NCBI RefSeq assembly: GCF_964213995.1 | Contig: NC_135808.1 | Span: 12,896,001 to 12,960,000 of the forward strand | Origin: Mustelus asterias | Lineage: Eukaryota | Direction of reading: 5' to 3' | DNA: 64,000 nucleotides | Part shown: positions 40,492 through 41,936 of the stretch, one piece after another | Numbering within the stretch: position 1 is the first letter of the stretch | How the letters are laid out: every line of letters starts with the position of its first letter | Made by a program: the position numbers and the translations under genes | Notes under the pieces: generated by a model | Database searches by the model: none | What the model saw: the letters and a program-made list of their open reading frames with translations, nothing else | Told to the model about the DNA's origin: nothing

Positions 40492-41132
40492 TCCCAGAAA
40501 GAAAAGCATTTTCCTGTCCAACTTTTTCAGGCAGGAAAGATTTAAAATCCTTACAGTGCAGAATGAGGTCATCCGGCCCATCGAGTCTGCACCAACCACA
40601 TCCCATTCAGGCCCCATCCTGAAAGCCTTACCTATTTACCCTAGCTATTCCCCCGACACTCAGGAGTAATTTAGCATAGCTAATCAACCTAACCTGCACA
40701 TTGATTTGATTTATTATTGTCACATGTATTAGTATACAGTGAAAAGTATTGTTTCTTGCTCACTATACGGGTTGCACCTGAACTGAAGGGGTACTAACAT
40801 CCTGGCAGGGAGATTTGCGAGAGCCACTCGAGAGGGTTTCAACTAGTTTGGCAGGGGATGGGTGTGGTAAACCACTGTTAAGCTTATTGCCTGTGTGTGT
40901 GTGTGTGAGACATGCCTGGGCATGCCCCTGCCGGCCCTGCCTGAGACTCCTCCCCCCCCCTGGTGCAGGTATAAAGGTGACTGCTCCCCACCCCCCCGCC
41001 TCAGTCCCTGGACCAGTTCATCGGCATGGGCGTGCTCCAAGTCTTTTGCGAATAAAAGCCTATTTGTTTTAGCATACAAACTAGTCTTTGCTTGATTGAT
41101 AGTGCATCAATTTTATTCGCAAAATTTTTGGG

Positions 41133-41936
41133 ATGGAGCAGATGCTAAAACCCAATAGACTTGAATTGGATCCTCAAGCCGTAGGAGCCTCTAACAGCTT
41201 CGATCACTGGCTGCGGTGTTTCGAAACTTTCCTCACCTCCTCCTCCGTCGTCCGGACCGAAACCAACAAGCTACACATGCTCCACGCCCAGGTAAGCGAT
41301 CAAGTATTCTCGATGATTAGAGACGCTGAAACTTACAAGGATGCGATTGAACTTTTAAAAGGCCAGTACAACAAACAGTCAAATGTAATCTACGCCAGAC
41401 ATCTTCTGGCTACTCGCAGACAACAGCCAGGAGAATCAGGCGATCAATTCTTGCGTGCGATGCGAGCACTTGGCAGGGCCTGCAACTTCAAGACCATAAC
41501 AGCCGCCCAAAACACTGAGGACATAATCAGAGATGCCTATGTCACGGGTATCAAGTCAAACTATATCCGACAGCGACTGCTGGAACAGGGTGGGCTGGAC
41601 CTACAAAAGACTGCCGACTCGTTAGAGGTGGCCTTCCATAATCTCTTGGCCTACACCCCCGATCATGGGGGCGCATCGTGGACGCCGCAGTCACCGCCAC
41701 CTCTGTACTTGGGAGGGCCGCAGGCCTACGCCACGCCATGTCCCACCAATGACTCGACCGCTGCGGCAGTCTCCGGAGGCCCGAAGTGCTACTTCTGCGG
41801 CCTGGGGAAGCACCCCCGAGAACGCTGCCTGGCGAAGGATGCGATCTGCTCCGGGTGTGGAAAGGAGGGCCACTATGTGAAGGTGTGCAGGGCAAAATCG
41901 ACCTCCAAGCCCAGTAGCGCCACATGTGACCTGTAG
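41133..41936 (+). CDS. gag: Gypsy Gag with two CCHC zinc knuckles
   Basis: RRQQPGES (MHR-like), IRDAYVTGI..IRQRLLE, CYFCGLGKHPRERC, CSGCGKEGHYVKVC. Confidence 0.9.
   Translation: MEQMLKPNRLELDPQAVGASNSFDHWLRCFETFLTSSSVVRTETNKLHMLHAQVSDQVFSMIRDAETYKDAIELLKGQYNKQSNVIYARHLLATRRQQPGESGDQFLRAMRALGRACNFKTITAAQNTEDIIRDAYVTGIKSNYIRQRLLEQGGLDLQKTADSLEVAFHNLLAYTPDHGGASWTPQSPPPLYLGGPQAYATPCPTNDSTAAAVSGGPKCYFCGLGKHPRERCLAKDAICSGCGKEGHYVKVCRAKSTSKPSSATCDL

What the first reader, a model, noticed from the sequence alone, without database searches (positions are those of the whole stretch)
41044..41135. Gypsy element with no tRNA PBS: the PBS position is a perfect 14-nt complement of its own LTR poly(A) signal
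Seen: only 23 nt separate the 5' LTR end (41109) from the gag ATG (41133), and there is no TGG-type PBS. Instead TTTTATTCGCAAAA (41111-41124) is the exact reverse complement of TTTTGCGAATAAAA (41044-41057), which contains the LTR AATAAA. A small U5 hairpin (TTGAT 41096-41100 / ATCAA 41106-41110) would stack on this stem. Known: Tf1/sushi elements self-prime, but by pairing the PBS with the first ~11 nt of the transcript; HIV masks its 5' poly(A) site with a hairpin. Inference: the paired segment lies ~45 nt past the expected TSS (TATA ~40970), so this may be a different, dual-purpose switch. It could mask the 5' poly(A) signal (the complement exists only after the 5' LTR) and, after cleavage 3' of 41057, supply a correctly oriented self-primer. 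The 3' LTR differs at this site (CGTTTGCTAATAAAA), which suggests 5' LTR and leader co-vary.
Basis: partly seen in the sequence, partly recalled or inferred. Interest (0 to 1): 0.8.

Follow-up and report, generated by a model that had tools for sequence, protein, structure and literature searches.

The report
Long self-primer in animal Gypsy retrotransposons
This jumping gene and its relatives in many animals have no tRNA landing site but pair that site with their own end-repeat, and copying accidents preserved in the genome suggest that they likely start reverse transcription with the first ~50-55 letters of their own RNA, likely cut off just after the poly(A)-signal-like motif.

Summary
[quoted passage not shown] Other gypsy clades in this genome have TGG-type PBSs. 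TATA plus Inr put the start site at ~41003. Fold-back insertions in the genome act as fossils: 4 of 8 early-stopping copies of R end at the Inr (0/-1), and 7 left parts start 0-8 nt before the cut. So the primer is likely a ~52-55-nt capped 5' fragment cut at a helix junction, not Tf1's first 11 nt. Poly(A) masking is plausible but secondary: 5 of 14 non-shark groups pair a non-canonical hexamer. The 3'-LTR argument is invalid (chimeric copy); the small U5 hairpin is shark-limited. No chromodomain; not Tf1/sushi on tested features. This scan noted the same clade before on other genomes, and one fold-back in this genome; the fossil mapping of both primer ends is added here. No RNA ends or biochemistry were available.

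The parts
40863..41109 (+). 5' LTR (TG...CA, 247 nt)
40970..40975 (+). TATA box
   Evidence: 65 of 66 own-genome copies have it, Inr 30-34 nt downstream in 62
41001..41006 (+). Initiator TCAGTC; predicted start site A 41003 = 5' end of the primer
   Evidence: 4 fold-back fossils of sibling families stop at the homologous base
41003..41057 (+). Inferred self-primer (55 nt here; 50-56 in most own-genome families, 64 in one)
   Evidence: inference
41033..41039 (+). TGCTCCA, can pair with TGGAGCA (41134-41140) over the gag start
   Evidence: compensatory TGTTCCA/TGGAACA in 2 copies of one family; fold is context-dependent
41044..41057 (+). Primer arm of the main helix, containing AATAAA (41051-41056); predicted cut between 41057 and 41058
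41058..41064 (+). GCCTATT, 5' strand of the second helix that starts at the cut (pairs with 41098-41105)
41098..41105 (+).
41110..41110 (+). One-base spacer between LTR and PBS (A in 81 of 83)
41111..41124 (+). Self-complementary PBS (15 bp in many family copies)
41133..41936 (+). gag ORF with two CCHC motifs; stops early in this copy
42104..44874 (+). pol in pieces: protease, RT (YLDN), RNase H, integrase core; broken by frameshifts and a deletion; no chromodomain found
44923..44938 (+). Polypurine tract
   Evidence: same in family copies
44939..45173 (+). 3' LTR of the other subtype (92% to the 5' LTR; no TSD)

Best explanation
This is a decayed copy of a chromodomain-less animal Ty3/gypsy clade whose PBS pairs with its own LTR, and which likely primes reverse transcription with the capped first ~50-55 nt of its own RNA, likely cut off at the TAAA^RCY helix junction. 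Shown: PBS/LTR complementarity in fixed register with compensatory changes across families and animal hosts; no TGG PBS; conserved TATA-Inr; fossils that stop at the Inr and at the cut. Inferred: the transcript starts at 41003; PBS pairs with 41044-41057 while 41058 onward forms a second helix; a nuclease (RT RNase H by analogy with Tf1, untested) cuts at the helix junction; RT extends the 5' fragment over 41110 to 41058; the ~20 nt between the cut and the poly(A) site serve as the R overlap for first strand transfer; plus-strand synthesis copies the attached primer, which rewrites the PBS from the LTR (hence pure Watson-Crick covariation) and, when copying runs on, yields fold-back palindromes and deleted elements. 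In sharks the same duplex would also hide the 5' AAUAAA, a likely but secondary effect.
For: Register: inner helix end exactly CA+1 nt in 83 of 94 elements; next bases GCC 75, ACC 5, GTC 3 of 94. Covariation: own PBS vs own LTR >=11 of 12 pairs in 20 of 26 group representatives against 16 of 650 cross pairs; permutation 0 of 100,000; 24 different 12-mers. 301 WC, 2 G-U, 9 mismatches at helix positions 1-13 in 24 representatives vs 45 G-U of 283 predicted pairs inside the loops: fits templated copying. No TGG within 10 nt in 83 of 83; 14 control gypsy elements of other clades in the genome with a resolved LTR end have TGG PBSs and at most 7 bp self-pairing, one matching a tRNA-Thr 3' end over 15 nt. 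Second helix at the cut: P(paired) 0.78 vs 0.39 in shuffles, 0.71 vs 0.37 in 13 non-shark groups (4 of 100,000); Tf1 also needs duplexes beside the primer helix (PMC10085805, passage). TATA-Inr in 62 of 66 own copies, none 30 nt before the paired arm in 8 checked. Fossils: 55 LTR+A+reverse-complement-of-R junctions tabulated; of 8 true early stops, 4 lie at Inr 0/-1 (L302, L303, L327, L342; binomial p 1e-5 to 3e-4 counting 11), each jumping to a different acceptor, three with intact 5-bp TSDs; 6 of 22 truncated left parts start 0 to 8 nt before the cut (p 2e-4), two exactly at it, plus L350; L306, L321 and L350 have TSDs, so they formed before or at integration. Tf1 cDNA also carries a copy of its primer (PMC11042837, passage).
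Against: No RNA ends, cleavage or priming were observed. All 4 Inr-stop fossils come from the L069/L075-type sibling families; none from the window's own family (stops at +15 and +17). They map an RNA 5' end but could also arise by the plus strand annealing to a second, uncut RNA. The pile-up at the cut coincides with the hairpin-loop boundary, so DNA-level processing of a palindrome could give it too. L321, L325 and L329 copied the leader up to the ATG before switching, so some fold-backs occur after the second transfer. A 55-nt primer needs a stop for plus-strand copying after ~14 nt that I could not identify. 11 of 94 elements were out of register (decay or mis-anchoring); L105 has a 2-nt spacer and no TAAA. 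Groups are related, so counts are not independent events. No poly(A)-tailed fossil was found.
Confidence: 0.75

Rival explanations
1. Self-priming, but the 55-nt fragment is trimmed at both ends (or a second downstream start is used), so the working primer is a Tf1-like ~14-mer; the Inr-stop fossils come from rare untrimmed primers or from a second RNA.
For: Removes the problem of stopping plus-strand copying; PBS pairing is mostly 13-16 bp; most elements carry only a 13-16-nt PBS copy.
Against: No TATA 30 nt before the arm in 8 elements checked; no pile-up of fossil stops at the helix's outer end could be seen, but the search patterns required at least ~25 nt of R copy, so such stops were not sampled.
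Confidence: 0.2
2. The primer is the 3' R copy at the genome's 3' end (trimmed or cut after AAUAAAA) or a short prematurely polyadenylated LTR transcript supplied in trans; the 5' end stays uncut.
For: The 3' R carries the same 14-mer; in L298, L308, L313 and L317 the reverse-complement arm runs through U3 and the PPT into pol; L298's left part starts near the Inr (+5).
Against: Left parts pile up at the cut, not at the Inr; the local 5' helix is predicted at ~0.99 probability; arms into pol are also explained by the plus-strand end annealing to the 3' R.
Confidence: 0.08
3. The helix is only a regulatory RNA structure (masking the 5' poly(A) signal and the gag AUG) and priming uses a host RNA such as an internal tRNA fragment.
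For: AAUAAA fully paired with the leader present, mostly open without it; 18 of 24 representatives pair AATAAA or ATTAAA; R/AUG helix with one compensatory change; tRNA sampling incomplete (12 anticodon types).
Against: 24 different PBS 12-mers that track the own LTR would need many primers; near absence of G-U and a single-base register tied to the LTR end are not expected of a purely structural stem; 5 of 14 non-shark groups pair GTTAAA/TTTAAA/GATAAA and L091/L092 have the canonical hexamer outside the duplex; best tRNA match 7 nt or less apart from one spurious intron call.
Confidence: 0.07

Closest known systems
Tf1/Tf2, Tj1 and the Tf1/sushi chromoviruses (PMC7175516, PMC10085805, PMC4600332, PMC11042837: passages seen)
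   Same: PBS complementary to the element's own LTR; no tRNA site; extra duplex beside the primer helix; primer copied onto the cDNA end.
   Different: Tf1's primer is the first 11 nt of the RNA; here the paired arm lies ~40 nt inside R and the primer would be ~50-55 nt, ending in TAAA next to or in the poly(A) hexamer. No chromodomain here; RT mostly YxDN; two CCHC in gag; no pretzel duplex from the PBS-downstream side to U5 was found, instead an R/AUG helix.
Plant Tcn1 (gypsy) and TAR/Houba (copia) lineages predicted to self-prime (PMC6317226, passages seen)
   Same: Self-priming predicted from PBS/LTR complementarity outside fission yeast.
   Different: Plant lineages; Tcn1 is Tf1/sushi-related, TAR is copia; no internal long primer in the passages seen.
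Fungal GalEa conserved hairpin site (PMC5445492) and bivalve TRIMs without PBS (PMC6934838), passages seen
   Same: No tRNA PBS; conserved inverted repeat at the PBS position.
   Different: There both arms lie downstream of the LTR; here one arm is inside the LTR.
HIV-1 poly(A) hairpin (recalled, no call)
   Same: Occlusion of the 5' AAUAAA by base pairing.
   Different: HIV uses a local R-U5 hairpin and a tRNA primer; here the occluding strand is the PBS itself.
Mag lineage of gypsy elements (PMC6238403, PMC3601003 passages; two-CCHC gag recalled)
   Same: Short elements, two CCHC motifs, wide metazoan range.
   Different: Placement untested for lack of reference sequences; elements with a TGGCGA PBS in this genome (a Mag-type PBS by recall) are only 25-27% identical in RT and lie outside the clade.

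Membership tests
Ty3/gypsy LTR retrotransposon | pol order PR-RT-RH-IN | tested here: met
   best PDB match Ty3 RT, E 2e-31
Ty3/gypsy LTR retrotransposon | TG...CA LTRs, PPT, short TSD | tested here: met
   (5-bp TSD in family copies; absent in this chimeric copy)
Tf1/sushi group | PBS complementary to own LTR, no tRNA PBS | tested here: met
Tf1/sushi group | Self-primer = first ~11 nt of the transcript | tested here: not met
   TATA-Inr geometry and fossils stopping at the Inr 51-53 nt before the cut; indirect, no RNA mapping
Tf1/sushi group | Chromodomain at integrase C-terminus | tested here: not met
   No chromo hit in the 975-aa pol of L092 or the window's C-terminal ORF at E 0.1
Tf1/sushi group | Three-duplex pretzel structure | tested here: inconclusive
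   One flanking duplex (post-cut with U5 or a local hairpin) supported; the other is not seen, an R/AUG helix occurs in sharks
Tf1/sushi group | RT groups with Tf1/sushi | not testable with these tools
   No Tf1 or sushi sequence was held as a stored protein; tree holds only this clade and two own-genome outgroups
Tf1/sushi group | Primer released by RT RNase H | not testable with these tools
   needs biochemistry
Mag lineage | Two CCHC arrays in gag (feature recalled) | tested here: met
Mag lineage | RT monophyly with Mag/SURL/CFG1 references | not testable with these tools
   references not held; supplements of PMC6238403 and PMC8556966 gave no matching motifs (some files not searched)
tRNA-primed gypsy element | TGG-initial PBS matching a tRNA 3' end | tested here: not met
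   0 of 83; controls positive
tRNA-primed gypsy element | PBS matching an internal tRNA fragment | tested here: inconclusive
   51 tRNA genes of 12 anticodon types only; best 7 nt

The most novel reading that the evidence does not exclude
A second, independently evolved self-priming system in a widespread animal gypsy clade: the capped first ~50-55 nt of the genome are cut off at a two-helix junction just after the poly(A)-type TAAA, so one duplex hides the 5' poly(A) signal, sets the primer end and fixes the ~20-nt R overlap; copying of this long primer rewrites the PBS each cycle and spawns integrated palindromes and mini-elements that record the start site.
Probability: 0.55. Interest if true: 0.82.

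Novelty: new variant of a known kind. Interest (0 to 1): 0.7.

Why it matters
Self-priming has been shown only for fission-yeast Tf1-type elements, where the primer is the first 11 nt. A long capped primer in a chromodomain-less clade found in sharks, with protein relatives in a cnidarian, an octopus, a nematode and a spider, would mean tRNA-free priming arose again, with a different cut rule and a link to 3'-end formation, and would place these elements outside tRNA-fragment control. The genomic fossils give exact, testable coordinates for the start site and the cut, and offer a way to read reverse-transcription intermediates from assemblies alone. It also explains why PBS-based LTR finders can miss this clade and why it leaves palindromic insertions.

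Tried and rejected
RNA evidence: no RNA holder listed; the five runs are contigs only, and laying four of them and X1 again showed no start, end or poly(A) junction; depth not used. Search for poly(A)-tailed copies of the LTR in the genome: 0 matches, so the poly(A) site (~41075-41079 by motif) is unmapped. Viral contigs held no relative; the gag alignment was too variable for a collection scan. A splice-made primer as in the BEL/Pao notes was considered and dropped: no conserved AG before the arm across families. 5'/3' LTR difference as covariation evidence: rejected (chimera). A microhomology hot spot as the cause of Inr stops: GACT is at or below median frequency, CAGACT in the top 12-21%, so not sufficient. 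L135's LTR pair was an inverted neighbour. The full IQ-TREE run did not finish; FastTree on 62 selected rows was used. Original Levin papers and the Tf1 review were not held. Ten literature searches found no paper describing this clade's PBS; most subscription papers and Repbase reports are outside the library, and I recall (unverified) Repbase notes of self-priming mosquito gypsy families. Unread supplements (picture PDFs and files 13-14 of PMC8556966) might name the clade.

Full report
1. Observation. The window holds a 4.3-kb gypsy element, LTRs 40863-41109 and 44939-45173, with gag (two CCHC), protease, RT, RNase H and integrase in pieces and a PPT. The 14-mer at 41044-41057 and its exact reverse complement at 41111-41124 are as described; chance is about 3e-7 to 3e-6. 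The copy is a chimera: LTRs 217/235 identical, no TSD, and the 3' LTR belongs to a second subtype. The closest gag and RT hits are from sharks, then a cnidarian, an octopus, a nematode and a spider.

2. It is a family and clade trait. The family has about 1,900-2,100 candidate LTR matches in G000 (30 loci taken from each). Among 35 in-register copies the LTR/PBS bases at helix position 8 are G/C 19, T/A 10, T/C 3, G/T 2, G/A 1: two subtypes, one compensatory event. A diverged gag query gave 30 more loci from other own-genome families, and an RT alignment gave 80 metagenome loci. Of 170 loci, 94 had a gag N-terminus with 200 nt upstream. A blind search put the helix's inner end exactly one base after CA in 83 of 94; the LTR arm ends in TAAA(A) followed by GCC in 75, ACC in 5, GTC in 3. 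With the PBS anchored without using the pairing (90 of 94), 20 of 26 group representatives pair at least 11 of 12 bases with their own LTR, against 16 of 650 cross-group pairs; 0 of 100,000 permutations reach the observed sum; four low scores are mis-anchored. Groups are related, so these are not independent events. The number of T's in the PBS tracks the number of A's in the LTR so that pairing stops right before RC.

3. No tRNA primer. None of 83 has TGG within 10 nt of the LTR. Of 20 control loci picked from an RNase H family search, 14 with a resolved LTR end have TGG PBSs and at most 7 bp of self-pairing; one proved to be a clade member and five were unresolved. Against 51 tRNA genes of 12 anticodon types the best match was 7 nt or less apart from one spurious intron call, while control L221 matched a tRNA-Thr 3' end over 15 nt; internal tRNA fragments are thus only partly tested. 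In a FastTree of 62 selected RT/RH rows the 28 self-pairing rows lie on one side of a branch with support 100, together with 20 unlabelled rows; no Tf1, sushi or Mag reference could be included.

4. Signs of a primer rather than a plain stem. At helix positions 1-13 in 24 representatives there are 301 Watson-Crick pairs, 2 G-U and 9 mismatches, while predicted pairs inside the loops include 45 G-U of 283. That fits plus-strand copying of the primer into the PBS; Tf1 cDNA is reported to carry such a copy (PMC11042837, passages). The first three bases after the cut start a second helix: P(paired) 0.78 against 0.39 in shuffled loops for 22 of 24 representatives, 0.71 against 0.37 for 13 non-shark ones (4 of 100,000). 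Tf1 needs duplexes beside its primer helix (PMC10085805, passages).

5. Poly(A) signal. In sharks the arm holds the only AATAAA or ATTAAA of the R-U5 region, and it is predicted fully paired when the leader is present and mostly open when it is not. But among 14 non-shark representatives the arm reads ATTAAA 6, AATAAA 3, GTTAAA 3, TTTAAA 1, GATAAA 1, and L091 and L092 have a canonical hexamer downstream, outside the duplex. Masking is therefore a likely side function, not the invariant. No poly(A)-tailed copy was found. If cleavage occurs 15-25 nt after the hexamer (general knowledge), that stretch is the overlap for first strand transfer.

6. Start site and primer length. 65 of 66 own-genome copies have TATA and 62 an Inr-like motif 30-34 nt downstream, 50-56 nt (one family 64) before the cut; nothing TATA-like lies 30 nt before the arm or the cut in 8 checked. 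R upstream of the arm can pair with the gag start (TGCTCCA/TGGAGCA; TGTTCCA/TGGAACA in 2 copies), though the fold depends on context. In Tf1 the primer is the first 11 nt, cut by RNase H (PMC7175516, passages), so the geometry differs.

7. Fossils. Prompted by note e1-9338657, I searched G000 for LTR + A + reverse complement of R and tabulated 55 junctions (L304/L305 are probably one duplicated insertion, L350 was read by hand, L351 was an ordinary element). In 41 the arm runs to the U3 end (a few on into the PPT), in 3 it is interrupted and resumes, 11 were called early stops, of which 3 are reference artefacts at the U3 end. The 8 true stops lie at -111, -19, -1, 0, 0, 0, +7 and +15 relative to the Inr A fixed beforehand; 4 of 11 within 0/-1 has binomial p 1e-5 (3e-4 for a 5-nt window). 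The four (L302, L303, L327, L342; L342 from the later batch) jump by 2-6-nt microhomology to four different acceptors, three are flanked by perfect 5-bp TSDs, and GACT is no hot spot. This shows RT copying a template whose 5' end is the Inr: what an attached 52-nt primer predicts, though a second uncut RNA would give the same. Six of 22 truncated left parts start 0-8 nt before the cut (p 2e-4), two exactly at GCC, several preceded by pol sequence, and L306, L321 and L350 have TSDs; this fits minus strong-stop DNA ending at the cut and mis-jumping, but the cut is also the loop boundary of the palindrome. 14 of 24 full palindromes have TSDs. Against a simple reading: all Inr stops are from sibling families, and L321, L325 and L329 copied the leader to the ATG before switching.

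8. Mechanism and rivals. Most likely (0.75): transcription from 41003, co-transcriptional pairing, cut at the helix junction (RNase H by analogy), priming by the capped fragment, ~53-nt strong stop, transfer over ~20 nt of R, plus-strand copying of the primer normally halted after the PBS by an unknown stop. Rivals: primer trimmed to ~14 nt (0.2, still self-priming); priming by the 3' R or a short transcript in trans (0.08); structure only with a host primer (0.07).

9. Known or new. Works like Tf1 self-priming, but fails two tested Tf1/sushi features (primer position, chromodomain). Self-priming is also predicted for plant Tcn1 and TAR (PMC6317226, passages); GalEa and bivalve TRIM hairpins lie wholly outside the LTR (PMC5445492, PMC6934838, passages). 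Passages of PMC3601003, PMC3587641, PMC6238403, PMC8556966, PMC13524379 and PMC4600332 did not describe this PBS; ten searches found no paper that does, with the limits of the library. This scan had already noted the clade on other genomes (e1-7941792, e1-8041440, e1-7857539, e1-8039920) and one fold-back here; those are unchecked notes, not support. Added here: register rule, Watson-Crick purity, second helix, and fossil mapping of both primer ends. Verdict: real, new variant of a known kind, interest 0.7.

Noticed in passing
G000 fossils, e.g. L295, L299, L311, L312, L318, L322, L324, L332, L334, L343, L349: Full palindromic LTR+reverse-LTR units inserted with 5-bp TSDs (14 of 24 full units match); two U3 ends were apparently integrated as a unit.
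   Followed up: yes
L327 / L354: A mini-element LTR - primer copy - 3' UTR - PPT - LTR of ~620 bp with TSD: a one-step route to a TRIM-like element.
   Followed up: partly
window 42805-43719 and homologues: RT active-site motif is YLDN; 87 of 120 homologues read [YF]xDN, 17 xxDD, 1 DE, 15 uncalled. Self-pairing elements with YLDD also occur (L129, L132), so the two traits are not strictly linked.
   Followed up: partly
window 39513-42735 vs L002 (G000 C8, ~150 kb away): The element and its flank are duplicated in inverted orientation at 98.8% identity: a recent segmental duplication.
   Followed up: partly
L178: 5' LTR and PBS share a T/A variant while the 3' LTR keeps C, with an intact TSD: possible gene conversion or template switch.
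   Followed up: no
L105: Distant clade member with a 2-nt spacer and a paired arm ending TGAA with no poly(A)-like hexamer.
   Followed up: partly
window 41919-42086: Tandem 42-bp repeats at the gag-pol junction, with a stop codon in the first unit.
   Followed up: no
window 40233-40494 and 46280-47000: Penelope-like pieces (inverted pair near 40264-40494; RT-like fragment inside a RING-finger/TRIM-like exon at 46155), identified by recalled resemblance.
   Followed up: no
L221-L232, L237: A young ~7.3-7.8 kb gypsy family with a TGG PBS 4-5 nt from the LTR matching a tRNA-Thr 3' end.
   Followed up: partly
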